The notes below the pieces were generated by a model that saw only the letters and a list, made by a program, of their open reading frames with translations, was not told the origin of the DNA and made no database searches. DNA of 58,638 nt, filler included, from Sphacelaria rigidula (taxonomy: Eukaryota), in the NCBI GenBank assembly GCA_964200075.2. It is 9 parts of 9 records of this genome, joined end to end, with 100 filler letters (N's around TTAATTAATTAA, not from the genome) between each part and the next. Parts side by side here need not be neighbours in the genome. Positions count along the whole stretch, not along the records: positions 45,687 to 52,112 come from CAXNAA020020143.1; 8 more parts are not named here. One strand, 5' to 3'. Below are positions 1 through 54,016 of this stretch, in pieces. Both the position numbers and the translations under genes were made by a program. How positions within the stretch are numbered: position 1 is the stretch's first letter; every line of letters starts with the position of its first letter.

Positions 1-1160
1 CGAAGAAAAAATAAGAAATACAAAAGAGAGGACGGAAAATATTGCGGCTCATCTACTACGGCCGCACTATTTGGGGTATGAACCCTCACATCCATGAACA
101 AACACAATGAATCGAGGCATCAAGCTGCTCTTGCATACTCCGGCAGGAAAGAACACACACATATTATATAGAAAGATGAGGGAAAGGGAGAGCAGAGAAA
201 GAGGAGACTACCGTATAATAGTGGTGAAGCCAATAATTCAGGGTTGCGGCAGATCCTGACACACACCGGGGGGCACCGCAGAACGATCGACCAAGGGGCA
301 TAATCAACAACCGATAGGGGCAGACAGGATTATTCGATTGGCGGCTCTCGCCGCAGTAGCCCCTCGTTTGTGACGGCGGTCCGATTCTCGTTCGTCTTCG
401 CGTCGCCACTCGTCCTCAAAATTTTCCGCTCCCTTCTCAACTCCAATATGCCATTTGCCCGTGTTCTTCGCCGCAGTGATCGAATCGTATGCGCCCTCAA
501 CCTCTACACCGTAGACGCACCATTTACGTCGTGCTCCCTTGTGCGGAATAACCCCTAGTGCACATAGGTTCTACTAGAGGTTTTCCTCCCATCATTTGGG
601 GGACCCGTTAGCCTCCCTGAGCCCTCGTGCGACTAATCGTCCGTTATTGATGCGTTCAGGGAGGCGTGTTTCCTTCTGCCGGACAAGGGCTCCCGCGAAC
701 CAGAGTTGACGTTTGCGGATAGTCGTCTCGATGCGTTCGCAGTTGGTCATCTCGAGCATCGTTCTGTACGAAAGAGTCTTGGAGTCATTCGATCTTTCCT
801 GCGGAGAGCAACCACTCGCAACAATAACTTGTGATGAGCAGTGCGTAGACTGTCGGAGTCCTCGGAACGTAACGTCCATGTGACACATCCGTACAGCAGA
901 ACTACCACTACCTCCACTTCAAGCAGCCGGACTTTCGAGGATAGCTGGTCGTTGGGTCGATCACGGTTGATAGTTGTACAAGATGTTTGTTTTGGGCCGA
1001 TTATATCTCAGGAAATGCTTGGGTCTTCTTTTTTGCCATGAGGGGGGGGAGAACTGCATACGTAGAGCTCTCCAGTTTTGGAGCAAGGGCAGCGAAACAA
1101 GGGAGTGCCTGCATGCTGTTCAGTGTTCGATGCAGCGTACTATTATAGTCCTTCGCTGTT
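1..1160 (-). mobile_element. Degenerate LINE (RTE-like) 3' portion: ORF2 C-terminus plus 3' region, in an intron of the epimerase gene
   Basis: Minus strand reads LKVRLLEVEVVVVLLYGCVTWTLRSEDSDSLRTAHHKLLLRVV and, after a frameshift, SYRTMLEMTNCERIETTIRKRQLWFAGALVRQKETRLPERI, typical of the post-RT region of RTE-type LINEs. Bases ~260-530 are the reverse complement of a related copy at ~57800-58080. Confidence 0.8.
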
Positions 1161-6427: not shown

Positions 6428-6527
6428 NNNNNNNNNNNNNNNNNNNNNNNNNNNNNNNNNNNNNNNNNNNNTTAATTAATTAANNNNNNNNNNNNNNNNN
6501 NNNNNNNNNNNNNNNNNNNNNNNNNNN
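6428..6527. other. Artificial contig linker (N44-TTAATTAATTAA-N44); also at 12955, 19482, 26009, 32535, 39061, 45587, 52113
   Basis: Eight identical 100-bp spacers with a six-frame stop linker. The intervening contigs are 6427,6427,6427,6427,6426,6426,6426,6426,6426 bp. Confidence 0.97.
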
Positions 6528-6723: not shown

Positions 6724-7954
6724 CACTACATGGAACTTCGCTTTGTCTGCTCGAAATTCGAAATTCACTTAGCAAGCGAGTGCTTCTGTTCTCACTTGTC
6801 TCGTTGGCGGTACGGTCCTGCACGTTTTCTTTTGTCTGTTCAGTTGTCCTGCGCACATATATCACAGCCCCTCCCTTTTCCGCGCCGTTGACACCAATTT
6901 TCTCCGTAAATCTATCTCCTTCTCTCGTTCGTTGCTGCTGCAAAAAATACGTGTTTTTTATATGTTTTGTTGGTGGTATTGTGTCATGATGTGATCATGT
7001 CATGATGTGATCATGTCATGATGCGATCGATGTTCTATGGCGCCATGCACCACAATTGTCGTTGGCGGTACGATCCTGCACGTTTTTTCTTGTCTTAGTT
7101 GAATGATGGCTGTATTAACGGTGGAGCGGTTTCCGCGTTACAAGAGCGTATCAATTCGATTCAATTCAAACCCAGCCAATCGAGTCATAACCCATTCGAA
7201 CTTTCCAAGGGTCGGACAAATAATGATTCGTTTGGAAATTACTTGGTTTTAGTATGATGAGTCGACTCGNNNNNNNNNGCCCAGACACGTGGAATGGCGC
7301 AAAAGCTGCGTGGATACCCCTCGGACCAGCGATCAACTTATTTCTACCTTTTGGGCAATCAGGCCGAAGACATCGTGAATTCGGTGATTTTGAATCGTGA
7401 TGATTTGTCCTAACCGCGGAACTTTCCCACTCAAAGCTTCAAAAACAGGAGAAGCTGCTCCGTTTCATTTTGTTTTTGCTTTTTCAGTCGTTTCGTCCCT
7501 GACTTCCTCCCATGAGGAAAAGTTACACTGTAAGGCGTGTTATAGGTGATGTGTAACACCGGACAGTGTCCAAAGTCCAAATCCCACTGTCTCTTGGGGG
7601 AAAGAGAGTTGATGTTGACTCGAACTCACAGCAGCTACTGTACGGCGGGGAGCCCATGGTTAATGCATTATGATGCCGACATAAAGTGGTCCTTTTTCGA
7701 GAACAAGCCTACGATACGATTTTATCCATCCCAACAGTTTTGGTATCTGTTATAGCATCATGTAACAGATGGAGCACAAAAGCTCGTGTCTGGCCCGTTC
7801 AGCTGGTGCAAACGGGTACTTGTTTAGAAACTATCTATTTCATAAAGTGTAAATCGTCTCATCATGTCGCACATTGGTGGACGTATTTTTTTGGCGGCTG
7901 TGCTGCTTGGTTGGCCGCTCTTGCCTGCGGCCTGTGGTAAATGAACTAAAAAAG

Positions 7955-12531: not shown

Positions 12532-13959
12532 TAGAAGAAAAAATACATTGTGTATTTTTCCTTCCTTTCATCTTAGGATGTATGTGCTGTTGTTCTGCGT
12601 TTTCAAGCGTATAGTAGCTACGTGCACTACACACGCGAGCGACCCGGAGATCACGAGGAGTTTAGCAGTATAACTACTCATCATCAGATGAACCCCTTTA
12701 TTTAGCGCGGAGAACGGTGACCGGATGTTGAATCGGCATAACTTTCACTTGTGGAATGAATGACTGCATGGTCCAGATTTTCCATTTGTCGGCGGTGAAA
12801 GGGTTGCCCTTTGACTGCCCGGGTGGGTCATCTGATCTGTTCTTCTATCGGTATCAATTTCACTGGTAAAATGATAGGAACAAATGTTTTCGTGAGATTG
12901 AGAGTAGAGGATACGATTGAGAGTGAAAGGCGGTCAAGTAGTGAATGAATTGTTNNNNNNNNNNNNNNNNNNNNNNNNNNNNNNNNNNNNNNNNNNNNTT
13001 AATTAATTAANNNNNNNNNNNNNNNNNNNNNNNNNNNNNNNNNNNNNNNNNNNNGCCACAGCGCCTCTTCCTCACGCAAGTCTCACCACGTGTTTGAAGT
13101 CCTTAGACTCCTCTTCCTGACCGTACCTGGCCAAGCGTGGAACAAGAAACTCTCGCTGGCCCTACCAGGCAGTAATTTCGCCGCTCTTTTGGAACGTGCA
13201 CAGGCTCGCCAGCTGTCCGTCAACCCCCCGCACCTCTCGCACGAGCGATACCACAGCCCACCCCAGCACTGCCTAAGAACCTCCTCGGCTCTACTTCTTC
13301 AATTCCTCGCGACGTTAACACGCCTAGAGCTGGTCTTGTTTGCTGCAAACAGATCAGGCCTGCAGACTTCCCTATCTTGAAGTGTCAGCTGCTTTTCAGC
13401 GGATCTACCGCTAGTCAGCGGACTTAATGAACGTTCATTGTAGACTTCTGTCACTCAAGATCAGATTTCCATGTGTACTCCTCCCATCACGGGCACATGG
13501 ACTTCAGCAGCTTTAGTTTTTCATATATTAGCCCTCAGCATAGTACAGGAGAACAGGACCATAGCCTCTCCCCAACAGAGTGGCAAAATCGGCTCTGCTC
13601 GTCATGGAGGTCACCATCATAGAGTCCAGCAATCAGACCCGCAACTCCACCTACAATGTCCCTGGCCTCAGGTAACAACGGTGGCTATGTCTACAGATCA
13701 CACAATCCAGTGTTGTACCAGGGACAGGCGTGTCAGAAGACCCACATCGGCTTGGGCACCTGTGAAAAGCTGAAGGGTTCAGCTGGACCTGTCGTGAGCA
13801 CGAAGGCCACTCCAGAACATCATGTGATGTTAAGTGGTACATGTGTACCGTTCCAGCGTGGCACGTAACGTTTCGCCCACGAGCCATGTCACTGCCCCAC
13901 TGGGGAATCCAGCAGCAGAGAGAGACAAGGAGATAGCTTTCCTAAGAGCACGGAACGGT

Positions 13960-19481: not shown

Positions 19482-19731
19482 NNNNNNNNNNNNNNNNNNN
19501 NNNNNNNNNNNNNNNNNNNNNNNNNTTAATTAATTAANNNNNNNNNNNNNNNNNNNNNNNNNNNNNNNNNNNNNNNNNNNNAAAATCGGACATCACCGGC
19601 GGCTGCGGCCCCGCCCTGGGCGTCGTGGTGGGTCGGGGGGGGGGGGGGGGGGGGGGGGGTGGGGGGGGGGGGGGGGGGGGGGGGGGCTATCCCGACATCA
19701 TTGATAAACTTCTAGAAAAAAAACCTGACAT

Positions 19732-25409: not shown

Positions 25410-26275
25410 CTGCGACCCGTATTTTTGTTGTTGCGTGCATACGAGAGCAACAGACGCGTGCGCATCGAGATAAAGTCACCGGGGCATATGCATGAGGTTT
25501 ACCCTGTACCACACGCATGCATACGCTGTACACCGATAGACCACGAGACGGACGCCTCACATATAAAACACGGTTTACGCTTAATAAACGCCTGCAATTA
25601 GGTTGATTTCCGTGTGCAGTGCAAACGCACCTACGGAGCCATGAGGAGCAGTGTCTGCTGAGCTGCAGTGTGCAAACGAGCCATCGGCGGCACAGAAAAT
25701 AAAACCAGCGAGCGAACAAAACATTGAGAAAAAACGGTCGCCGGAAGTGAACTGCCTTTGACACAGAGTGCGCTTGTAACCCGTAATCTCAAGAAGAGGG
25801 CCATTCTGTACTTCCACCGTTGAACAAAAGACACAAGAGACACAAGAGAGACACTAGTTTCTTCTCTGCCAGCCCAGCACCAAACTCGATGGGACAAAAT
25901 TGCACCCACGAAGGATAAGCGAACACGCAAGAAATAATTTGAGGGAAAAAAAAAAAAAACATCCACCAGACGAGGCAATACAGGGTCCACCCCCCCCCAC
26001 TACTTGTGNNNNNNNNNNNNNNNNNNNNNNNNNNNNNNNNNNNNNNNNNNNNTTAATTAATTAANNNNNNNNNNNNNNNNNNNNNNNNNNNNNNNNNNNN
26101 NNNNNNNNGGGTTCGAGAGATCGAGCTAATGTGATGGATATAATAATAATAATAATAACTGGCTTACAGCAAGGCGATATGTCTCGTGATCTCGAACAAG
26201 CATCCACTTGAGTTAACTTGTGCACATACGAATACGTGGTGACTACTGTAATATACACCATGTTGTTTGTGCACT

Positions 26276-31915: not shown

Positions 31916-33036
31916 GAATACAAATCTCAAACACTGTTTACGAGTGTATGTCCACACGCCGGAGCTTAGATACGATGCTTCGGCTTCAGGCGTGGATGCT
32001 GCAATGAAGGCGTATACCTCGCATATGTATCCAAACAGTTCATAAAAAAACATATTTTCAATGTCTACCAATAAGACAAGTCAAATAATATTTAGAAAAA
32101 AATCACTCATTTGATCATGCTTTTGGTTATGGAGGTTTTTCCTTGATATTTATTAGAGGCACAAATATTTGCACATCGTTAATAACGAACCATGATTGGC
32201 TCAGTGTATATCTTGAAGCATTCCTGAGCACAAACTGGTGAGTTCAATACCTACTGCTGTTATATCTAGACCTTTTTTCTCTGTCAGTACAATACCCATG
32301 CTGTAAGGTGGAGTATATTGTATGTGCGCTATAAATACTGTACAGTATATTAACAATAATGAACAGTTCTCGGGGTGACGAAACTCTGTGAAGCGTACTG
32401 TGCGCGCTGGAAAAACCCCTACAGCCGAACCCCGCGAGAAACACTGCACAGAGTCCCTGAAACCCTGTGAAGCGTCCTGTGTGGCGAGTCATCCTACGAT
32501 AGAGGGGGGGGGTATTTGGTTGCACGAAAAAAGANNNNNNNNNNNNNNNNNNNNNNNNNNNNNNNNNNNNNNNNNNNNTTAATTAATTAANNNNNNNNNN
32601 NNNNNNNNNNNNNNNNNNNNNNNNNNNNNNNNNNGTGGGGAAAGCACTGTTTTAGGCTTGAACCTCATCTGGGAGTTAAACCTCAATTCGCACAATTTGT
32701 TGTTATTTCACTCTGACTTCGGCACTGTGTTCCGACGATGATCCGTTCATTGCGCCAAAATCTAGGCACGCTGGCAATTTCGACTTGTATCGAAGAGTAG
32801 TACGCGAAAAAACCCTGGGACACCCCAAGACTGTTGCACCACCCAGTACTACATGCAACATTTCAACGCGAAATATGGGAATGTCGGCAGGACGACAGAG
32901 CTTGGCGAAAGCACTTGACTTGAGGACTGGGGTTTGTTCGCCGTTACTGGTTACAAATGTGAAGTGGGTCTGCTATCGCGCCGACATGTCTGAGAAAATG
33001 AACGGGCAACAAATATGTACAGAGTGTTGGCTTTAG

Positions 33037-38535: not shown

Positions 38536-39485
38536 GAATCACCGAAATGTTCGCGTGCAAAGCCTGTGTGGCCGTACTCTACGTTGATAAAGCTAGAAGA
38601 ACACCAGTGCAACGGCCATTCCGGCTGCCGGCCTGTGCACGGCCGTCCCGGTAGTGTTGGGACTGTCTGTACCGGGATGTCGCCCCCAGTGCCAGGAACG
38701 CCGGCAAGGGTCCGCAGCACTACCCACTGGTCGCGCGACAGGAGCTCAATCTTCGACTGTCGAGATTTTTCAAGCGGAAATGTTCAGCTCCCAACCCTCA
38801 CATATATAGCGGACCATAAACGATGCTTATTTGCTGGGTTTCTTCGAGCGTTCGTCTATAACTGGGCGAAGATTAATGATGAGACTGGCAGGATCCGTCT
38901 CAGCCGGCGGGATCAACTATCACACACGCGACCATTCGGCTCCTGTTTGGAAATCCTCTATCGCGATTTTCATCCTCTGGAGGGTAAATGACCCTGTGGA
39001 GGGTAAAATACCCTCTAGAGGTGTTTCATCCCTGTGGAATGGACATAAACGAATCCTCTGNNNNNNNNNNNNNNNNNNNNNNNNNNNNNNNNNNNNNNNN
39101 NNNNTTAATTAATTAANNNNNNNNNNNNNNNNNNNNNNNNNNNNNNNNNNNNNNNNNNNNCACTCATTTGTTGCTTGCCTTGTCGTTTGACCATTGACCA
39201 CGCATCCCTTTCGAGACGGAGCAGGATGGAGGGGGGCATATGCAACATGGCAAACCTCAAAAAGTAGAGTAGGTCACTCATGTTGAAGACCAAGAGTTGT
39301 TTTTAGGGAAGACGGAGAAGTACTTCAGTGCACAACATCGTGATATTTAACACGAATACATGCCAGCGTCTTCTCGTGCAAGCATGGCTGTAATTTCCTC
39401 AGCCTTCCCCACGAGACTGTGATTGAATCATGACCCTGGGTATTCTCTCACTACTTTGGTACTATACCTACCCCATATCCTGAAA

Positions 39486-44795: not shown

Positions 44796-46111
44796 AGTAT
44801 AGCAGGGTATAGGGTAGGGAAGGGTTAGGTAGGGTACTCTAGTGTACTAGAGCGTACTACAGAACAACATAGTATAGTTCGGTGCTGCACAGGGCGGCGT
44901 GTTTTACCTGAATCTTCACCGATCAGCTTGGGTATTGTCGGGATATACTCCAGCGCGTCTGGATTGCACGGTCTATACAGCACTACGTAGCAGCACGTCC
45001 TATATGCGCACCCGCAGCAGTACAGCGAGCGCAGCACCGGCCGGCCGTCGCGCTGCTGCCCAACGGTAAGCCAGATATTCGCCGTTTGCCTACGGGCTGC
45101 GGACACACGTTCTGGGTCCTCCTGAAAAAAAATGAAACAAACACGCATGCACGTCGGCACACGAGCCCGTCAGGAGGGAAAGTGTTGGATGAGGTTTCCC
45201 CCTTCCTTGAAGAAAAATAAGGGAAAAAAAAGAGAGAGAGGAAGGGAGGAAGGGAAAAAAACATGGCCAAATCGCGAGCGAGGCTTCTTGAACAAACAGG
45301 AACGAAAGGTGAAGTGAGTAAGATAGAATTCTGGTCCTTCGTTACTCCACTCGGAACTGTAAGGTGTCCTTTCTAATCGAAAAAAACTGGTGCATTTTGA
45401 CACTACTTGGAAACGGAGTCTTTGGGGGTCCGAACAAAGGAACCCCGGCAGTGCTGTCGATTCATTGTATCAATTTGATCTCCCGTCCTCCCGGGGGGCG
45501 AGGCAGAAAGTTGCAAGGGTCGGACAAATCAATGATTCGTCTGGAAATTACTTGGTTTTAGAATAATTGCTTCGAATCGTACGAATNNNNNNNNNNNNNN
45601 NNNNNNNNNNNNNNNNNNNNNNNNNNNNNNTTAATTAATTAANNNNNNNNNNNNNNNNNNNNNNNNNNNNNNNNNNNNNNNNNNNNACCTGGTGTCGGCC
45701 GACACATATATCGTGCGCTTCATCGATGACCCTGGACCCATACAGCTCAAGCTTCGGCCAGCACTTTACACCACCAGCCCATCTGCACCCCGCGGATCCT
45801 GGTGTCTCCAGCGTCTCCAGTCCAAAGGACTTCGCCGCGGTCTCCAGCGCAACATCGACCACACCCATGACGTCCACGCCCCGCTTTGAACCACGCTTCT
45901 TGTCGCGACAGTTGCCCCACCCCCATTTTTTCCCGTAAGCATTGTGTGCCCCCCCGTTCTCCACCAGGACCCTCTTCTACTATACCACGATAGCACGACC
46001 TACACCGAACAACGATCAAGAACTGCTGACACGACCTCTACCTACGATTACTGGAGCCATAGTATCCCCTCCATCTAGCGCTCGATCTTGTTGGATCACC
46101 GATTTTAAGCA

Positions 46112-46237
46112 CCTTTGGATTCCCCCAGGTTGACGCTCTTCTCCCTGTTGTACCTTTGGATTCTCCCAGGTTGAAGCTCTGCTCCCTGTTGTATCTTTGG
46201 GATTCCCCCAGGTTGAAGCTCTGCTCCCTGTTGTACC
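46112..46237. repeat. Three tandem ~41-42-bp units
   Basis: CTTTGGATTC(C/T)CCCAGGTTGA(C/A)GCTC(T/TG)...CTCCCTGTTGTA(C/T) repeated three times. Confidence 0.85.
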
Positions 46238-47529
46238 TCCCTGTTTTCCCCCCTGACTTTTGCTACGACGCCCAAGCAATTTGTGCTTCTTCGTTGATCG
46301 CTAGCACGGCGAAGCAGTTTGTGCTTCCGCGTTTCGGAGCAGTTTTTCTTTTCTACTCCTCGCACCAGTCTATGCTTCCGTTCTTTTGAGGTGTGGGAGT
46401 AGGGTACAGGATTGTTGGCACGGGAATGCCAGGTACGGGAGTGTTCCTTTAGGTATGCTTTAGTCGCTCATGACTTTACGAGTGAAGAAAAACCTTAGTT
46501 TTCGCCGCTTTGAGGATAAATCCTCGCAGCTGTAATAAAGGATTGTCTGGGTGGGTTAGTGTCATGAAGACGCATATTAGTCTGTTGATGCCGCTCCAGA
46601 CCGTTGTCGATTCTAGCCATGGCGTGCTTTTGTTCCGTAGACTACAAGTCTGTTCAGACTTCATCGGGTACGAATGTGAACCTGTATAATCACGGGAATA
46701 ATACGGGCTTTGTTCGCTGTAGCCACGAACAAACCCCCCTGATGAGCACTACCAACTGCTCCCATCTGCTAGCCAGCAAAAGGAAGTCTAACCATCGGTA
46801 AGAGATATTGGCTGGTCTGGGTTGGATTGATTGAGTGGTATCGGGGATATAATCAAGATAATTAAGAGAGAAGTCCAAGAACCTATTTGCGTGAACCTCG
46901 GCTAACATTTGGATATTGAGCAGGTTATACAGCCTTCTACACGGTGTAACAGTCTGACGATTGTGCACTTGCCGGACAAGCTTGTGCCTTAGGTTGCAAG
47001 GTATGTCCTTGCATTATACAGCCCCCTGCTATTTATTACACTGCATCAACGCTTGCAGAAAAACAACAATATCTTGCTCAAGAAAACGACAATTTTAAGG
47101 CTACGTTTTTTTAAACCTTGACCGCCTGTTATTGAAAATGCAAGTTTGGTCAAATACGGAATTGTGGCCTACGGAAAACACAGCGGTGCTCTGGAAGGGT
47201 CTCAACGAGTACAGCAAATCATTCCAAGGTGTCGAGCCCCGCCTAACCCTCTTTGCGGGCGAAAAACGATGGAGAAGGATCAAAAATGTACTTTTTGAAA
47301 AGGTTTATTTCTTTATACATGAGATGTAGTCTAAATCGTCACTCGTCCATCAACGGGTGCATATTTTCGTCGTTAATTTCATCCACTTTTCCCTGGTTTG
47401 CACGAGCTCGCCAATAACATTCTTCGTGTAATCTCGCTGCACTACCTTGAAGTTACTTTGCTAGATGCTCCCGCCGCCTGCGAGTGACAAGCCTTGTACG
47501 CGTCTATCATAAATGCTACCCTTGTGCAG

Positions 47530-50500
47530 GAACAAAAGAAGGTACCCGAATCATTCAGGGCGTGGGACCCCGCGGTCTTGACCCAGCTTCCCATTTACGT
47601 GCAGGAGAGTTTTCCTTTCATCCTTACGAAGAAGTCAGCGGTGCACAAGGATATCGTTAACGACTTGCGTGACAACGTCGTTAGAGGGGGGAAGAGTATT
47701 AGAGCGTGTTCATACGGGATCAGGCAAATGCATTTAGTGCGGTACCACGACCAGGAAAGTACTACAGCAAGCTGTTGTGGGATAGGAAATTCCCCTCGGT
47801 GGGTATACCGGTGAAGGAGGAAATATTCAGCGAGTTTGGAAACCGTAAGTATTACAATGGTTTCTCTCCGTCTGCGCACTACCTGAGGTCTTTGTGGACT
47901 GAAGTCCAGGAGAGGCGACCAGTGGCCAAGCTCGACAAATATGTGAAAGGAGGGGAGGGCGAGGTGCGTTGACAGAATATTCACGACTCTGCTAATACAT
48001 TGGGTAATCTTGGTCTCTATGTACAAGTAGAATGTTTTTGTTCGTGTCCTCAAACTGTTACTGACTACTTCGTTGCGATGTCGATTTCTTTACATATCGA
48101 TACTTCCTCCTGACCCCACGCACTTGCAGGAGGGTTGGACTCGTGAATATTTCTTGCAGCGACGCCAACAACAGATTGATGGGACTGTGCTAAGCATGGA
48201 CGGCTCATACAAATTCGTCAAATTGGTTCGTGTACGGGATGGAAAAGGTGCTGACGCACGGCCTATCTACTGTGTAATAACCGATTTCAACGAGTTCGAG
48301 CAGGTGGGTCATGCTCTGCGATCAGTCAGCGCGGCGATGATAGACCGAAGGCCATTCTGAGGCTATGCCACATTGATGGAACCATGTGATCTGAACTCGT
48401 CATGCTTGCAGCGCACTGCAGCGCAGTATGGTACCCCGGTATGTACATCGTTTCGATTGTGTAGTGCCCGCCTCACCTGCTTTCTCTGTTTTTTTCCAGT
48501 GAAGGGGTCGTGTGTGTGTGTGTGTTTTTTTTTTCGAGTTACAGGTGGCCATGCAGAAGGGTTTGGGTGGCGCATCAGTAAGAGAGATCAAGGAAGACCT
48601 GAAGCTGCTGCTGAGGGCTCGCTACAGAGACAGCGGATTCAAGCTCCCTCGAGTAGTGTACACGGATTTGTGTTGTGACGACCGACAGCTGCTTCGCGAG
48701 ATTCTCAACGAACTTCGGGACGAAGGGTGGGAGTATCACCTCGCAGACCCCGAGCCAACGGGACCAGAACAGCCGCTTTACAAGATTCCGGATGATGTTG
48801 ACGTTGTTTGCGTTCGGGCGAGCCAGCAGAATACTGTCTCGGAAGGTTTGTGCTCAAAACTTGAGAGCGAGATCGCTGCAAACGGCCACGTCATGGGCCT
48901 GGACATCGAGTGGGAGCTACCGAGGGTCGGCAGCTCTCCAAATCCTCCTGCCATCATTCAGCTGGTTGCAGGAAAACTCGTGGTGATATTTCAAGTCTTG
49001 CACGGCCAAAGGTTGGCACCCAAGGCGCTTCCATCGTCACTGCAGAACATTTTGGAGAACTCCAAGATCGTTAAGGCCGGTGTTGCGATTTCTGCCGAAT
49101 GTATACGGCTACGGAATTTATACAACGTGGAAGTCGCGAACGCAGTCAACTTGGTTAGGCTCGGCCGTGACCGCCAGGTAAAGTTGGGAAGAAACGGTCT
49201 CGCAGATCTATGTGCTGATCTTCTAGGAAAGCGCCTAGAGAAGGAGCAACATCTACGAGTGTCAAAATGGAACACGCCACATCTTTCGGACGCCCAGAAG
49301 GGGTGGGTGCCTGTGTAGCTGCAGTTGACTGTTGTGAGGATTTAGGTGCTTTGTGTTGTTCTTCTTGCTGCCGAAAGACTGTACGCGTCGACGTTTTATC
49401 AGCTTTGTTTTCGGTTTTCCTGAATTGTCATGGGCCTCTATTGTTGGATTCTTAGAGAGGGACGTCTGAGTTGCTGTCAAGTTCTCCACTTGCGCAGAGA
49501 AGGAAAATTGTACGTTTGAACAAGCCGACTGCACACGTGTCATCCTCTTGCATACTGACATTTTGTTGGCGTGGCTTCCACCCCTAGTGTTGCTGTCATT
49601 TCTCGTGCCGACGCATTTCCTACTGCTAACTAAAAATCGTCGTTCTTGATTACTGCCCCGCACATTTGCGTACGTCGCCCCTGCACTGCGCAGGTATGCT
49701 GCACGAGATGCGCACGCATCGTTCGCGCTTTATGGCCGTATTGTGGAGCTGTCTGATCCCATCTTTGGGGAGCCGGACGGTCTCGAGGCGGGGGATCGTG
49801 CCCGCCTCTACATGGAGACAGGTCCCATTTGTATTGCGGAAGATGTTTTGCAGGAGTACCCGCATCGCACGTGGGGTAATTCGGAACTGGTGGTCGGCAA
49901 ACGAGCCACTCGAAGCAAAGCGCAACGGTGGGTTGTGCGTATTGATTGGGCGTTGGTGAATCGAGCGCACGTCATGTACCAAGACAGCGACCAAGGTAAA
50001 ATACAAGGGAGAGCGAAGGTCGTGGACAGAGTGGGCGAGCTCGTGCTGTGGGACAGCCATCGTATGCGAAAAGCTATCAACAGCGAGGGTACGAAAGCGG
50101 GCGCTGCCAGCAGCGTGGGTGCAGAGACGGGCACAGACAGCGAGAAGGCTGCAGGAGCTAGTGCTGTCGACAGCGGAGGTTTAGTAGCGAGCGCCGCCAG
50201 TACCGCGGGCGCGGAGGCGAGCGCCGCCAACAGTGCGGGCGCAGGGTTGAGCGCCGCCAACAGCGCGGGCCAAGGGACGGACACAGGGACGGACACCGCC
50301 AGCAGTGGGAGCGCAGGGGTGAGCGCCGTCGGCAGCACGCATGCAGGAGCGGGCGCTGGGGCCCGGATCGCTGGGCGTCATGAGGACTCCACTGTTGAGA
50401 GTCTGTTCGTGAGCCCATCAGAGTCTTTCTTTCAAGGAGAGCTGTGCGGGCTCGAGAAACTAAGCGCGGCCGCGGTTGATCTGCTCGGCGAGGCTTTCGG

Positions 50501-52112
50501 TGCATCTATCTCTGTCGAGGAGCGGGCGGCGGCAGAGCTGGATCATTCAGCGTTCGAAGTCGAGGATGCACAAGAGAACTTCCGCGAGGCTTGTGGCTTC
50601 GACAGTTCAGACCCTATTGTTGTGGACGTACTTGATGAACTCCTGACAGGACAACAAGAGCACGACCCTCTGCAGATGACCGTTGTTGGCGGAGTGAATG
50701 GGACTTTGCACTACATTGTCACTGGTGAGGGGCAGTCATTCAGCTGTAGTATTTTACCTTTCATACACCGTGCACACCACGTTTAAACTGCTTTCTGGTT
50801 TCTCGTGTGCACACGATGGTCGCTCCAATGCTTCGCAGACAGCTCAGGTTGAACTCAAGCTAGATGGCTATCATGCTATCCAACGGGTGACCAAGCTGGT
50901 CCCCAAAGCTCACGGCGGCGCAGCTCTGTATACTGCACGGTTTCGGGATGCGATCTTCCGAGTACATAAGAAGGACTTCGACGCCGCAGTTGAACCTTTA
51001 CGGCACTCGGGTCACTCGGAGGAAGAAATCGAGGAGAGGAAGAGGAAGGGTTGGAGATATTTCCTCTCGAAGTGTCGAAGGTTGGGCAGGGTTTGTACTT
51101 GATATCGGTTATGCAGTCCCTTCACAGCGTGAATTTTGGTTGACTTTACGTTTGAGCAGTGTCGGGTGTTCGACTCTTAGTTGAGCTAGAATGCACACCT
51201 GTGCGTACTCTCTTGTCCCGTTACTCCAATGTCCCCGTCAGCCATTTCCTTGTTTCTTGTTTCCTGTTTCTCTCAATATACAGGTTCATTCCTCCTCCAG
51301 CTGAGCTGGTGAAGCGGTTCGATCTCCTTCACCGGGTGTACGGCAACGTCATCGACAAGAAGACCAAGCAACCTCTACTGCGACCTGAGGCATGGGAAGC
51401 GGTGAAACGGCTCCGGCAGCATATTATCGCTGGGTCCATCAGCGATCCTACTGGGGTTCCTCTGTACTTTGAGACTGGGAAGGACCCAGAGACGGGGGCG
51501 CCGCAATACCGATGCGTACGCGGGACAAATGACCTCGAGGGCTACCACCTGCGCATGCGAATGCTCACGTCGTGGGTTGTGTCGCCGCGCTTGGCCAACG
51601 GTGTGCTCCTTGAACACAACTGTCAGTGGAACATGCGACAAGGCGACAAGAACAGGCGTTTTGATCCTGCGGTGGCTGGCTTCTTCGACCAACCGGTCAT
51701 CGAAGCTATTCAGGTATTGCGTTTTTATGTACACAACAGTAGTTACGGGGTACAAAGAATCGCGTCCGATCTTTCTTTTCCCGTTTATGGTAAGATTACG
51801 ATGGATCTTCCTGATGTTATCAGGTGGGCGGATTTGGTAGTAATGTTTGCTCGCCGTATTGTGATCAGTCCGGTATTATGTGAGGTTGACTTTCCTCCTG
51901 CTGGTCAATCAACCTTTGATGCAATATCCCTCCATACGCCTTGCCCATCTGCAGAGAATGACTCACGTTCTATTCGGAGAGGTACAGTACCCCGGCTGGG
52001 TTCCTACGGGTGCTTACCGCGACACGGGAGAGAGAAGTGGCTTCGTGTCCAGTATCCTTTCGGCAAATAATGGTTGTGACTACGACGCCGCCGATGAAAT
52101 CTACTCGGGGGG
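47530..52112 (+). CDS. Dada-type (DUF6729-associated, MULE/IS256-related) DDE transposase with an embedded DEDDy 3'-5' exonuclease; 7 exons, one frameshift, 3' end cut by gap
   Basis: Exons 47530-47963, 48130-48303, 48545-49302, 49694-50724, 50843-51080, 51284-51713 and 51955->52112 join with GT-AG introns in consistent phases (0,0,2,1,2,0). Motifs: LP..VQESFPFILTKKSAV; LSMDGSYK (D1); NEFEQV; VYTDLCCDDR (D2); LKLDGYHAIQR (DxxH); ISDPTGVPLY; YRCVRGTNDLEGYH (E). Exonuclease motifs GLDIEW, KAGVAISAECIRL, SKWNTPHLSDAQKGYAARDA. Frameshift at ~47755-47759. Confidence 0.85.
48850..49735 (+). other. WRN/Mut-7-like DEDDy 3'-5' exonuclease domain (split by intron 49303-49693)
   Basis: ExoI GLDIEW, AIIQL, LP..L..ILEN..I.KAGV, GLADLC..LLGK.L.K....RVSKW, ExoIII YAARDA. 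Confidence 0.9.
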
Positions 52113-54016
52113 NNNNNNNNNNNNNNNNNNNNNNNNNNNNNNNNNNNNNNNNNNNNTTAATTAATTAANNNNNNNNNNNNNNNNNNNNNNNNNNNNNNNN
52201 NNNNNNNNNNNNCACACACACCTCCGCTAGTCTTTTTACAACTACTAATAGGTGTGGTTGTCATCAGCGGCCGAGAAATTGAAAACGTTCTGTATCGTGC
52301 CGCCGTAGGTCCTGCCTGAAGAAGCTTAGTTTGGTGGCTATGATTTGGGGTCCTTGCAGCTGTTGCATCATACCATGCGCCGTACTAAGTACTCCGAGTA
52401 TCCAAGTAAGACCATTTTTTTATGGGGACCAATCCCGAATCTGGCGGGACCCCAATCTGTGCCAGATCGGGGGGGTTCAGATTCTCGAAACTCAGATTCG
52501 TGTGTACCCCTTCATGGTTTCATAGATTTATGGAAATTGTTGTGTACAAGGAGGGTCAATTTTTGTTGTGGTGTGGTATCACAGTGAAGCCGACAAACAG
52601 GCAGGTGGTGAATCATCCTTCAAGAGCACCGTCGTACCGTGGTACCCTAGGGTATAATGCAGTGTAGTACGCTCCACAATCACAGTACACGGTAATGCCG
52701 TGTGGTAATACATGATGGTACAGTCGGTATGGCGAGAACAGTGCACAACAACAGTGTGCGACGAGAGTTCACGATCGTAGTGCTAGTCGTCACCCTGCAA
52801 GTACAGCGGCAGCAGCAGCGCGGCAAATATATACCACCAATCGCCGCAGGGTACAGCGTCAACACTTTTCAATCCGCCCGTCAAATCCCGTGCGAAGCTG
52901 CTCCAGCAGCTGGCCTGTCACGAGACTGTCTTCTGCTGCGGTTGCAAAATATCAAGCGCCTGTTGCCCTATAACCGGACGTCTATGTACGTACGTCACTT
53001 CCTGTAGATTCGGGGGATCTCGATTTTCTCCCGATATGCGCTCGGATTCGGGGAGCACTGTTCTCAGATCGTGACATACGAATATGAGCTTCCCCGATTC
53101 GGGCCGGCTTGAGTTCCCCCGATCTGTGTACAGATTGAGCATAAAAAATGTTCCAAGGGCGTGTCTTAGCACGTTTCTTTTCGATCGATGAAAGGGGTGC
53201 TGGAATTATCATGAAAGAAATTCGCTCGTTTTCGTCCAGTAGGGTTCAGGCGAACTTTCGAGCTTCTGAGGAGGCAGTAAAATTCGTGAACCGTGCTTGG
53301 TCCCTTGTGTGCAGTACAGTCTGTACTGCCTGCACTCCTTGTATGCAGTATGTTTGTGTGTGTGTATGCATGTTTCGCACTGTAGGGTGTGAACGAGAAG
53401 TGGGCAATGTGCAGCACAGACAGCGCAGGACCATCTGCCCTCTCTGCTTGCAATGCGACGTGAAAGGGACTTGTACAACGTGCAGCTTTGTACTGCCTGC
53501 TCTGTCCGTGAGGGTGTACGCAAGCCGGTTGCCCACCCCACCAAGCAGTTCCGTTGCTGATCCGTAACATAAAAGAAGGTGCTCAAGTTCTCGCCAACAT
53601 AAAATCAACAAAGCATACCCAACTACTGCAGTGTATCCATCCCCGTGCTCACTCGTGCTATATGCTGCAGGGTCGCGGTGGCGGCTGAGAATGATTCGGA
53701 TGGATTTCAGAGTTTCATCGTTTTGTGAACTGGTGGTGCACGATGTGGAGGTCTGATAAGATAGAAATCGAGTGCCGCTTCGTGCCTTTCGACCGTATGT
53801 TTTGGATCGAAAAAGCATAGCTTCATTGGTTTTTACTTCCTCTCCGTGCGCCCCTGATAATGAAGGCGAGTTGAAGCCTTCTAGGAGCGGAAATACGGTG
53901 GACCCATCAGATGATGTCATGACTATGGCATGCATGATCATGAGACCCCCCACCCTCCTCTGCGTTGAAGAACCTCAACGCTGCACAATGAGGATGATCG
54001 TAACACGTAGTGTTTG

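What the first reader, a model, noticed from the sequence alone, without database searches (positions are those of the whole stretch)
47530..52112. Spliced Dada-type DDE transposase carrying a complete 3'-5' exonuclease inside its catalytic core
Seen in sequence: seven AG/GT-bounded exons join in perfect phase into one protein of over 1000 aa. Its motifs run D1 (SMDGS, codon 48199), D2 (YTDLCC, 48665), [DEDDy exonuclease + extra domain + linker], DxxH (LDGYH, 50863), E (RGTNDLEGYH, 51537). Established knowledge, recalled from memory: D-D-DxxH-E with an insertion between D2 and DxxH fits the Dada superfamily (Kojima & Jurka 2013). Dada elements are TIR-less DNA transposons related to MuDR/IS256, several of which insert site-specifically into U6/U1 snRNA or tRNA genes. 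I recall that exonuclease-bearing members were noted in fungi and Ectocarpus, so the architecture may not be wholly new, but I know of no characterisation of its function. Inference: a transposase with a built-in WRN-like nuclease could trim or process its own transposon or target 3' ends, and might be a sequence-specific integrase of biotechnological interest.
Basis: partly seen in the sequence, partly recalled or inferred. Interest (0 to 1): 0.85.

Follow-up and report, generated by a model that had tools for sequence, protein, structure and literature searches.

The report
Partial Dada transposase with built-in exonuclease
This is a broken, incomplete copy of a known type of jumping gene (Dada) in a brown alga, whose DNA-cutting enzyme carries a DNA-trimming exonuclease inside it; that design was first reported in 2013, so this is a new example and not a new kind.

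Summary
The motifs are real and sit at the stated codons. Six exons (48130-52112) join in frame through GT..AG introns. They are colinear with an intronless 1409-aa relative (P0165). The order DUF6729, D1, D2, WRN-like exonuclease, small beta-barrel, linker, DxxH, E recurs in relatives from brown algae, fungi and protists.

- The window is nine ~6.4-kb contigs joined by N linkers. The gene sits on one 6426-bp contig and is cut at both ends, so the N-terminal CCCC and C-terminal CCHC zinc fingers seen in full-length relatives are missing.
- The first exon (47530-47963) has a frame break between 47758 and 47825. "Perfect phase" therefore fails there.
- The ExoII aspartate of the exonuclease is glutamate in this copy (D in 35 of 37 aligned rows).

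Kojima & Jurka 2013 already described Dada elements of Ectocarpus and Laccaria with a DEDDy exonuclease between the second D and DxxH. This is therefore a new, decayed member of a known kind.

New here:
- A predicted structure of a relative has an IS256-like (ISCth4, Z 13.6) RNase H core split by the exonuclease.
- The "extra domain" is an SH3-like barrel.

Element ends, target site and splicing could not be tested.

The parts
45687..47233 (.). Unrelated repeated DNA upstream of the gene. It includes a 41-bp tandem repeat x3.1 at 46111-46238. It occupies the place where the N-terminal exons would be expected.
   Evidence: In run X1, 2-58 distinct contigs cover single positions in 45805-46939, against 1-2 in 47511-51436. 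35 loose ends lie behind 47233 (tables 3 and 7). Tandem repeat. No homolog HSP at E<=1e-3 in this stretch.
47530..47963 (+). Exon 1 as present: the C-terminal half of the DUF6729 region (FRAWDPAVLTQLP... then ...FSEFGNRKYYNGFSPSAHYL). It follows an AG acceptor at 47528-47529 and has a frame break between 47758 and 47825.
   Evidence: Pfam DUF6729, E 2.9e-06. tblastn HSPs lie in two frames, with P0165 residues 156-230 on 47530-47757 and residues 261-295 on 47826-47930. Stop at 47812 in the first frame.
48130..48303 (+). Exon 2, carrying the first catalytic Asp (D1, LSMDGSYKF; gac at 48199-48201).
   Evidence: D in 22 of 22 aligned rows. P0165 residues 300-366.
48545..49302 (+). Exon 3: second catalytic Asp (D2, VVYTDLCC; gat at 48665-48667), then exonuclease motifs ExoI (GLDIEW; D at 48902-48904, E at 48908-48910) and ExoII (ISAECI; Glu instead of Asp at 49097-49099).
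   Evidence: Pfam PF01612, E 1.9e-06. WRN exonuclease, E 1e-09, with residue alignment. Column counts. P0165 residues 365-620, 35% identity, E 5e-40.
49694..50724 (+). Exon 4: ExoIII (YAARDA; Y at 49695-49697, D at 49707-49709), an SH3-like beta-barrel (49752-50090), and a low-complexity Ala/Gly/Ser linker that includes a 30-bp repeat x2.8 at 50187-50270.
   Evidence: Fold of 49752-50090: pLDDT 85.3. Only weak Tudor/PWWP/KOW-type matches, Z<=5.6. Tandem repeat.
50843..51080 (+). Exon 5, with the DxxH motif (LKLDGYH; D at 50863-50865, H at 50872-50874) that opens the helical insertion domain.
   Evidence: D and H in 39 of 39 rows. P0165 residues 839-931. Part of the public model P0002.
51284..51713 (+). 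Exon 6: the most conserved core block (FIPPPAEL... SDPTG... YRCVRGTNDLEGYH), with the catalytic Glu at 51537-51539.
   Evidence: 971 library proteins at E<=1e-3. E in 40 of 40 rows. P0165 residues 924-1084, 42% identity, E 7e-37.
51955..52112 (+). Exon 7, open to the contig end. The remaining ~300 C-terminal residues, including the CCHC finger of relatives, are not on the contig.
   Evidence: HSPs of P0014, P0016, P0034 and P0011 on 51940-52101. In phase with exon 6. N linker from 52113.

Best explanation
The locus is a partial, decaying copy of a Dada-superfamily DNA transposon gene from a brown alga. It lies on a 6.4-kb unplaced contig.

The protein family has the following layout:
- An N-terminal CCCC zinc-finger/DUF6729 region.
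- An RNase H-like DDE core of the IS256/MuDR/hAT type, with a helical insertion domain that begins at DxxH.
- A conserved module spliced into that core between the second Asp and DxxH. The module is a WRN-like DEDDy 3'-5' exonuclease, an SH3-like beta-barrel and a variable linker.
- A C-terminal CCHC finger.

Likely mechanism for intact family members, which is inferred and not shown: the DDE site cuts the element ends and joins their 3'-OH to staggered target phosphates (6-7-bp duplications in Dada). The exonuclease, tethered beside the active site, trims 3' ends generated at the element/donor junction or at the target gap.

This copy is very probably inactive. Its N- and C-terminal parts are absent from the contig, exon 1 has a frame break, and the ExoII Asp is Glu.
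For: Motifs, exons and phases.

Colinearity with the intronless single ORF P0165 (1409 aa, locus L001), with junctions exactly at my splice sites.

Conserved architecture:
- Of the 150 best of 971 library hits to exon 6, I scanned all 65 that are 500 aa or longer.
- 44 of 65 carry PF01612, always N-terminal to the core match. 19 of 65 carry DUF6729, and where an exonuclease is also present DUF6729 lies N-terminal to it.
- MMETSP transcripts P0154 and P0155 belong to the 90%-identity cluster of P0058, which carries PHD, DUF6729, exonuclease and core on one protein.

Catalytic columns in alignment A1 (rows with a residue): D1 22/22, D2 29/29, ExoI D 33/33, ExoI E 33/34, ExoII D 35/37, ExoIII Y 39/39, ExoIII D 39/39, DxxH D 39/39, DxxH H 39/39, E 40/40.

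AlphaFold2 model of relative P0141 (pLDDT 77.3):
- b1 (D49), b2, b3, a1, b4 (D118), a2.
- Then the exonuclease (153-357), the beta domain (371-439) and a disordered linker.
- Then a strand at 490-492, DxxH at 493-496, helices, and E658 on helix 655-671.

Structure search: WRN exonuclease Z 24.8. The only non-exonuclease entry in the top 50 is the IS256-family transposase ISCth4, 6xg8_A, with Z 13.6, rmsd 3.9, 250 residues aligned, model range 6..906 and chain range 131..398. ISCth4 has D175/D241/E348 and C262xxH265 at the start of its insertion domain (PMC7780238, passages read).

Zinc fingers in full-length relatives.

Literature: PMC3706591 describes exactly this exonuclease position in Ectocarpus and Laccaria Dada.

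Transposon-like state: run X1 holds exact contigs and contigs about 6-7% different over the same intervals (15 of 219, 14 of 229 and 16 of 240 letters, table 8). P0003 is a 92%-identical fragment on another contig.
Against: - No direct comparison with a Repbase Dada sequence was possible. Membership therefore rests on motif pattern, architecture, host taxa and the paper's text.
- Element ends, target-site duplications and target genes are not on the contig.
- No tRNA or Rfam family was found in the window or in 18 related metagenome loci totalling 86,663 bases. The hallmark small-RNA-gene targeting is therefore unsupported for this lineage.
- The model's coordinates are not exposed, so convergence of D49/D118/E658 was not measured.
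- The 929-codon open frame downstream of the break shows that decay is slight. The frame break could be an assembly error.
- Any role of the exonuclease is inference.
Confidence: 0.85

Rival explanations
1. A domesticated, Dada-derived host gene of brown algae, comparable to dDada of cyprinoid fish, and not a transposon copy.
For: - The frame is open over 929 codons after exon 1.
- All DDE and DxxH residues and 4 of 5 exonuclease residues are kept.
- Only 1-2 contig variants cover the gene in run X1.
- Domestication of Dada is on record (PMC8869645, passage on dDada read).
Against: - Frame break in exon 1.
- ExoII Asp to Glu, against D in 35 of 37 rows.
- N- and C-terminal fingers are absent from the contig.
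- The gene lies on a small unplaced contig next to repeated DNA.
- At least two variants about 6-7% apart occur in one run.
- Many diverged fragments (92%, 61%, 60% and 52% identity) are in the library.
Confidence: 0.07
2. A member of another C/DxxH transposase group (a MULE/IS256-like or as yet unnamed superfamily) that acquired an exonuclease independently, and not Dada.
For: - The best non-exonuclease structural match is an IS256-family transposase.
- No Repbase comparison was possible.
- The Atlas's nearest cluster that carries any Pfam family has Mutator on 14% of members, at a score of 0.76, which the tool calls often chance.
Against: - No MULE or Transposase_mut Pfam hit at E<=1 on any of the 6 window pieces, and none at E<=1e-3 on the 70 relatives scanned.
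- The combination of an N-terminal CCCC finger, a C-terminal CCHC finger, introns and an exonuclease exactly between D2 and DxxH, in brown algae and Agaricales, is what PMC3706591 gives for Dada.
- Dada itself was described as distantly similar to IS256/MuDR.
Confidence: 0.05
3. A gene-model artefact: a host WRN/EXD2-like exonuclease gene lying next to, or inside an intron of, a transposase gene, with the two joined only on paper.
For: No RNA evidence for the junctions could be obtained. The exonuclease's closest solved relatives are host enzymes, WRN and EXD2.
Against: - D2 and ExoI/ExoII lie in one uninterrupted exon, 48545-49302.
- Intronless relatives encode the whole series in one ORF (P0165).
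- 44 of 65 long relatives have the exonuclease upstream of the core.
- The fungal protein P0001 is colinear with both halves.
- The architecture is published.
Confidence: 0.02

Closest known systems
Dada-1_ES (Ectocarpus siliculosus) and Dada-1_LB / Dada-2_LB (Laccaria bicolor), Dada superfamily; Kojima & Jurka 2013, PLoS One 8:e68260
   Same: - DDE plus DxxH transposase with introns.
[quoted passage not shown]
- Brown-algal host.
- N-terminal CCCC and C-terminal CCHC fingers, seen here in relatives.
   Different: - This copy lacks both fingers because the contig is cut.
- It has a frame break in exon 1 and Glu for the ExoII Asp.
- Its ends and target are unknown.
Target-specific Dada families of animals and Perkinsus (Dada-U6, Dada-U1, Dada-tA, Dada-tL and others)
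   Same: Same superfamily motifs (D, D, DxxH, E), as described in PMC3706591.
   Different: - PMC3706591 reports the exonuclease only for the Laccaria and Ectocarpus elements.
- Those families insert into snRNA or tRNA genes. No small RNA gene was found in the window or in 18 related loci.
IS256-family transposase ISCth4 TnpA (PDB 6xg8) and eukaryotic MULE, hAT and P transposases that have a C/DxxH helical insertion domain
   Same: [quoted passage not shown] The model of relative P0141 matches 6xg8_A at Z 13.6 over 250 residues.
   Different: - No detectable sequence similarity.
- In ISCth4, D2 and CxxH are 21 residues apart (D241, C262). In the modelled relative P0141 they are 375 residues apart (D118, D493), because the exonuclease, barrel and linker are inserted there.
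WRN exonuclease domain, EXD2 and Mut-7/Nibbler (DEDDy, Pfam PF01612)
   Same: Fold and motifs. The window exon matches WRN at E 1e-09, the family profile at E 4.6e-52, and the model at Z 24.8, rmsd 1.9 over 186 residues.
   Different: - Here the domain is embedded inside a transposase core.
- It has no helicase or HRDC partner.
- It is followed by an SH3-like barrel.
- This copy has Glu at the ExoII position.
Other transposases with exonucleases, for example KolobokD (DEDDh) and KolobokE (lambda-exonuclease-like); PMC9587614
   Same: A DDE transposon lineage that has recruited an exonuclease thought to act on DNA intermediates (passages read).
   Different: The superfamily and the exonuclease class differ. 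[quoted passage not shown] The passages read do not say where the KolobokD nuclease sits.

Membership tests
Dada superfamily (Kojima & Jurka 2013) | Conserved D, D, E catalytic triad in an RNase H-like transposase core | tested here: met
   - D1 at 48199, D2 at 48665 and E at 51537.
- Invariant in 22/22, 29/29 and 40/40 aligned rows.
- The model of a relative has b1-b2-b3-a1-b4 with the two Asp, and Glu on a later helix.
- ISCth4 transposase match, Z 13.6.
- The active-site geometry itself was not measured.
Dada superfamily (Kojima & Jurka 2013) | DxxH motif after the second D | tested here: met
   LDGYH at 50860-50874. D and H are present in 39 of 39 rows.
Dada superfamily (Kojima & Jurka 2013) | N-terminal CCCC zinc finger | tested here: inconclusive
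   Not on the contig. P0165 residues 1-155 have no counterpart, and exon 1 begins at an acceptor site. A CPxC...CxxC-type cluster is present in 9 of the 12 printed relatives that carry the neighbouring F..WD..VL-type motif; 6 further relatives did not match my pattern. This copy is truncated, so absence here does not reflect the family.
Dada superfamily (Kojima & Jurka 2013) | C-terminal CCHC zinc finger | tested here: inconclusive
   The ORF runs off the contig at 52112. CxxCG[HK]...H...C motifs occur near the C-terminus of P0165, P0063, P0066, P0133 and P0123 among the 18 relatives printed. The A3 consensus ends in CxxCxxxxxxHxC.
Dada superfamily (Kojima & Jurka 2013) | 6-7-bp target-site duplications, no TIRs, short subterminal inverted repeats | not testable with these tools
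   Neither element end is on the 6426-bp contig. No genome is held for the window.
Dada superfamily (Kojima & Jurka 2013) | Insertion into multicopy small RNA genes (snRNA, tRNA) | tested here: inconclusive
   - 0 tRNA genes and 0 Rfam matches in the window.
- 0 tRNA genes and 0 Rfam matches in 18 related loci totalling 86,663 bases.
- Those contigs are about the size of the element, and split RNA genes would escape both scans.
Dada superfamily (Kojima & Jurka 2013) | Significant sequence similarity to a curated Dada transposase (Repbase) | not testable with these tools
   No Repbase or Dfam library is held. The paper's Dataset S1 could not be opened.
Exonuclease-bearing Dada subgroup (Laccaria / Ectocarpus type) | [quoted passage not shown] | tested here: met
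   D2 and ExoI/ExoII share exon 48545-49302. ExoIII lies at 49695-49709 and DxxH at 50863. The same order holds in 44 of 65 long relatives.
DEDDy 3'-5' exonucleases (Pfam PF01612, WRN/EXD2/Mut-7 type) | All four acidic residues (ExoI D and E, ExoII D, ExoIII D) plus the ExoIII Tyr | tested here: not met
   ExoI D and E and ExoIII Y and D are present. The ExoII Asp is Glu at 49097-49099 (aligned with the Asp of the WRN 'GIEGDQW' motif). D occurs in 35 of 37 rows; E occurs only in the window and P0063. The domain is a family member by Pfam score (28.2 bits against a cut-off of 23.6). This copy's active site is non-canonical.
IS256 / MULE (Mutator-like) transposases | Match to Pfam Transposase_mut / MULE-type profiles | tested here: not met
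   No such family at E<=1 on the 6 window pieces, nor at E<=1e-3 on 70 relatives. The likeness is structural only.

The most novel reading that the evidence does not exclude
The exonuclease-bearing Dada elements form a large, old, cross-kingdom lineage in brown algae, chytrids, Mucoromycota, Agaricomycetes and other protists. In this lineage a fixed cassette of WRN-like exonuclease plus SH3-like barrel is built into the RNase H core between b4/a2 and the strand before DxxH.

The cassette would be an obligatory catalytic partner. The enzyme would define its TIR-less ends by exonucleolytic 3' trimming next to the DDE site, a 'cut, trim and paste' chemistry not yet seen in any characterised transposase.

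A still bolder variant, not excluded, starts from the observation that the nearest folds include Mut-7/Nibbler and EXD1. On that reading, the domain acts on small RNAs to blunt host silencing.
Probability: 0.2. Interest if true: 0.6.

Novelty: new member of a known kind. Interest (0 to 1): 0.25.

Why it matters
For this locus the importance is small. It is a truncated, probably dead copy of a transposon type whose unusual architecture was published in 2013.

The family is a better subject:
- The exonuclease catalytic residues are almost invariant across 37-39 diverged relatives. This argues that nuclease activity is selected.
- No paper found in my two Dada searches, nor the passages I read in four of them, tests what it does.
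- An intact intronless relative such as the 1409-aa ORF in L001 would be a tractable protein for asking how a 3'-5' exonuclease cooperates with a DDE active site.
- The same protein could show whether Dada-type site-specific integration depends on the exonuclease.

The structural link to IS256 (ISCth4) and the SH3-like barrel are modest additions to the published description.

Tried and rejected
- **RNA evidence.** The look-up of sequencing runs listed no RNA holder. I laid X1 and three runs guessed to be RNA, X6, X7 and X10. No joint was listed in the gene. Contigs of X6 and X7 run unspliced through my introns (49076-49534, 49163-49656, 50935-51234) at about 96% identity. The RNA label is only a guess and these may be DNA, so this says nothing about splicing or expression.
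- **Whole genome.** None is held, so copies, ends and target duplications could not be collected.
- **Supplementary Dada alignment of PMC3706591.** It may hold the Dada-1_ES protein that would settle membership directly.
- **The search for related loci with the 43-row alignment A1.** I repeated it with the narrower alignment A2, which returned 18 loci.
- **Small RNA targets.** No tRNA or Rfam match in the window or in the 18 loci.
- **Sequence-profile search of PDB with A1.** It found only exonucleases and no transposase.
- **Foldseek with the 1023-residue model.** All rows shown were exonucleases or exonuclease domains of polymerases.
- **The beta domain.** No Foldseek match at E<=0.001. VIA best Z was 5.6 (ZapC, then Tudor, PWWP and KOW types), so only 'SH3-like small barrel' can be said.
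- **A mini-intron to rescue exon 1.** Many GT..AG intervals of 23-344 nt formally restore the frame. The short ones (for example 47737-47816, 80 nt, AAG acceptor) would delete the 19-35 residues that all relatives have there, and they are shorter than the six accepted introns (118-391 nt). I favour a frameshift or an assembly error.
- **Other copies in the window.** None.
- **Earlier scan notes.** None for this genome. A word search gave only other transposase-exonuclease fusions.
- **Atlas search.** The nearest clusters are unnamed eukaryotic proteins, commonest in Mollusca and Chordata, at scores 0.95-0.96. This is a lead only.
- **DUF6729.** A full-text search for the term found 0 papers.

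Full report
**Setting.** The window is not one stretch of chromosome. It holds eight N44-TTAATTAATTAA-N44 linkers about 6526-6527 bases apart, so it is a chain of ~6.43-kb contigs. The finding lies on the contig 45687-52112 (6426 bases). A 220-aa library protein that is 100% identical to the window's exon 6 (P0002) is named by NCBI as 'unnamed protein product, partial [Sphacelaria rigidula]' and sits on a 6426-base contig. The organism is therefore a brown alga. No whole genome is held for the window.

**The observation.**
- The four transposase motifs are at the stated codons: D1 gac at 48199, D2 gat at 48665, DxxH gat at 50863, E gag at 51537.
- Pfam finds DUF6729 (E 2.9e-06, only profile positions 114-183 of 229) in 47539-47754, and DNA_pol_A_exo1 (E 1.9e-06) in the D2 exon.
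- The other four of the six ORF pieces gave nothing, apart from a chance low-complexity hit.
- Exons 48130-48303, 48545-49302, 49694-50724, 50843-51080, 51284-51713 and 51955-52112 join in frame into 929 codons without a stop.
- Donors are GTGGGT, GTGGGT, GTGAGG, GTTGGG and GTATTG. All acceptors are CAG. Introns are 118-391 nt.

**Independent support for the junctions.**
- A metagenome locus, L001, encodes an intronless 1409-aa relative, P0165.
- Its tblastn segments abut exactly at my splice sites: residues 300-366, 365-620, 619-752, 839-931 and 924-1084. E-values reach 5e-40.
- The public model P0002 is an exact substring of my spliced protein across the 51080|51284 junction.

- *Exon 1 (47530-47963) is not in one phase.* Its first frame stops at 47812, and the donor at 47963 is in another frame. 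The seven-exon join read in one frame has 29 stops.
  - Relatives match the first frame up to 47757-47775 and the second frame from 47811-47826.
  - The number of their residues between the two blocks (19-35) is close to the DNA gap, so there is no room for an ordinary intron.
  - GT..AG intervals that formally restore the frame exist, but they would delete residues that all relatives keep.
  - I read this as a frameshift, either real or an assembly error.
- *The gene is cut at both ends.* Exon 7 runs into the contig end. P0165 residues 1-155 have no counterpart upstream.
  - The stretch 45687-47233 is instead repeated DNA. In run X1, 2-58 distinct contigs cover single positions there, against 1-2 in the gene, and 35 loose ends lie behind 47233.
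- *The exonuclease is not canonical in this copy.* Against WRN, GLDIEW aligns with GFDMEW, but AGVAISAECIRL aligns with AGVGIEGDQWKL. The ExoII Asp is therefore Glu at 49097-49099.
  - In alignment A1, D occupies that column in 35 of 37 rows. E occurs only here and in P0063.

**The architecture is a family trait.**
- Exon 6 alone finds 971 proteins at E<=1e-3, 258 at E<=1e-10 and 11 at E<=1e-30 among 1.84 billion representatives.
- Of the 150 listed, 65 are 500 aa or longer. I scanned all 65, plus 5 short ones, against Pfam.
- 14 of 30 and 30 of 35, so 44 of 65, carry PF01612. It always lies N-terminal to the core match.
- 19 of 65 carry DUF6729, and where an exonuclease is also present DUF6729 lies N-terminal to it.
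- Most of the 21 without an exonuclease are fragments that start near the core match. P0148 (DUF6729, no exonuclease detected) and P0035 are exceptions.
- Named members come from Ectocarpus sp., chytrids, a mucoromycote and Agaricomycetes. The cluster of P0058 (PHD-DUF6729-exonuclease-core) also contains two MMETSP transcripts.
- Column counts in A1: D1 22/22, D2 29/29, ExoI D 33/33, ExoI E 33/34, ExoIII Y 39/39, ExoIII D 39/39, DxxH D 39/39, DxxH H 39/39, E 40/40.
- A CPxC...CxxC-type cluster lies before the DUF6729 middle motif in 9 of the 12 printed relatives that carry that motif. A CxxCG[HK]...H...C motif lies near the C-terminus in 5 of the 18 printed relatives (consensus).

**Structure.**
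- An AlphaFold2 model of relative P0141 (1023 aa, 43-row alignment, mean pLDDT 77.3, pTM 0.58) shows this order:
  - b1 (45-51, D49), b2, b3, a1, b4 (114-117, followed by D118), a2.
  - The exonuclease, 153-357.
  - A beta domain, 371-439.
  - A disordered linker, 451-480.
  - A strand at 490-492, DxxH at 493-496, and a helical domain.
  - E658 on helix 655-671.
- Searching about 48,000 PDB representatives, WRN exonuclease is first (Z 24.8, rmsd 1.9, 186 residues aligned).
- The only non-exonuclease entry in the 50 rows is the IS256-family transposase ISCth4 (6xg8_A): Z 13.6, rmsd 3.9, 250 residues aligned, model range 6..906, chain range 131..398.
- The ISCth4 paper (PMC7780238, passages read) gives D175/D241/E348 and a helical insertion domain that opens with C262xxH265.
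- The exonuclease module therefore sits inside the RNase H-like core, between D2 and the C/DxxH. The two are 21 residues apart in ISCth4 and 375 apart in P0141.
- I could not measure active-site distances, because the model's coordinates are not exposed.
- The window's own 'extra domain' (49752-50090) folds confidently (pLDDT 85.3). It resembles only generic SH3-like barrels of the Tudor, PWWP and KOW types, with best Z 5.6 and no Foldseek hit at E<=0.001.

**Comparison with what is known.**
- Kojima & Jurka 2013 (PMC3706591; passages and section 5 read) defined Dada by these features:
  - a DDE triad plus DxxH;
  - an N-terminal CCCC finger and a C-terminal CCHC finger;
  - introns;
  - 6-7-bp duplications;
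  - no TIRs;
  - insertion into snRNA or tRNA genes.
- They state that the Laccaria bicolor and Ectocarpus siliculosus elements carry a DEDDy exonuclease between the second D and DxxH that 'likely process[es] the cleaved 3' ends'.
- The passages I read in later papers did not describe any experimental work on the Dada exonuclease: PMC8869645 (0 occurrences of 'exonuclease'), PMC5751038 (0 occurrences) and PMC9587614 (Kolobok exonucleases only). A search for 'DUF6729' found 0 papers.
- Direct comparison with Repbase sequences was impossible. The supplementary alignment was closed and may bear on membership.

**Mechanism and state of this copy.**
- What is shown: the domain order, the conservation of both active sites in the family, and the fold relations.
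- What is inferred: intact members cut and join DNA at the DDE site, while the tethered exonuclease trims 3' ends at the element/donor junction or at the target gap. The SH3-like barrel may hold nucleic acid.
- This copy lacks the finger regions, has a frame break and has an altered ExoII residue. It is most likely a relic.
- Run X1 holds both exact contigs and contigs 6-7% different over the same intervals (table 8). P0003 is a 92%-identical fragment. More than one copy or variant therefore exists.
- No tRNA or Rfam family was found in the window or in 18 related loci. Target specificity for this lineage is untested.

**Verdict.** The element is partial and decayed, and its architecture has been in print since 2013. 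It is a new member of a known kind, of low interest for the locus itself. The uncharacterised role of the conserved exonuclease cassette in the family is of moderate interest.

Noticed in passing
window 6428-6527, 12955-13054, 19482-19581, 26009-26108, 32535-32634, 39061-39160, 45587-45686, 52113-52212: Eight N44-TTAATTAATTAA-N44 linkers split the window into nine contigs of about 6.43 kb each, apparently sorted by size. Adjacency across these points is artificial. There is also a 9-N gap at 7270-7278.
   Followed up: yes
window 45687-47233: Repeated DNA next to the gene. Up to 58 distinct contigs of one run cover single positions, and many loose ends lie at 47233. It contains a 41-bp tandem repeat x3.1 at 46111-46238. 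Its family is not identified. It may have displaced the transposase's 5' exons.
   Followed up: partly
window 50187-50270: A 30-bp minisatellite (x2.8, 83% matches) lies inside the open reading frame and encodes an Ala/Ser/Gly-rich linker. This linker is longer than in most of the relatives aligned.
   Followed up: partly
relatives P0114, P0076, P0142, P0058, P0017: Extra domains on family members:
- P0114, a 3352-aa chytrid protein, carries three tandem units, each with OTU protease, DUF6729, exonuclease and core.
- P0076 carries a Ulp1 (C48) protease.
- P0142 carries a SAP domain just after the exonuclease.
- P0058 carries an N-terminal PHD finger.
- P0017 is fused to a UAA/TPT transporter, probably a chimeric gene model.
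   Followed up: no
L001:910-5139: An intact, intronless 1409-aa relative fills almost the whole of a 5275-bp metagenome contig. It has CCCC and CCHC fingers and all DEDDy and DDE residues. It is a good candidate for expression and biochemistry.
   Followed up: partly
window 48501-48540: A (TG)n run followed by a T run lies at the 3' end of intron 2. The read-laying tool skipped it as a repeat.
   Followed up: no
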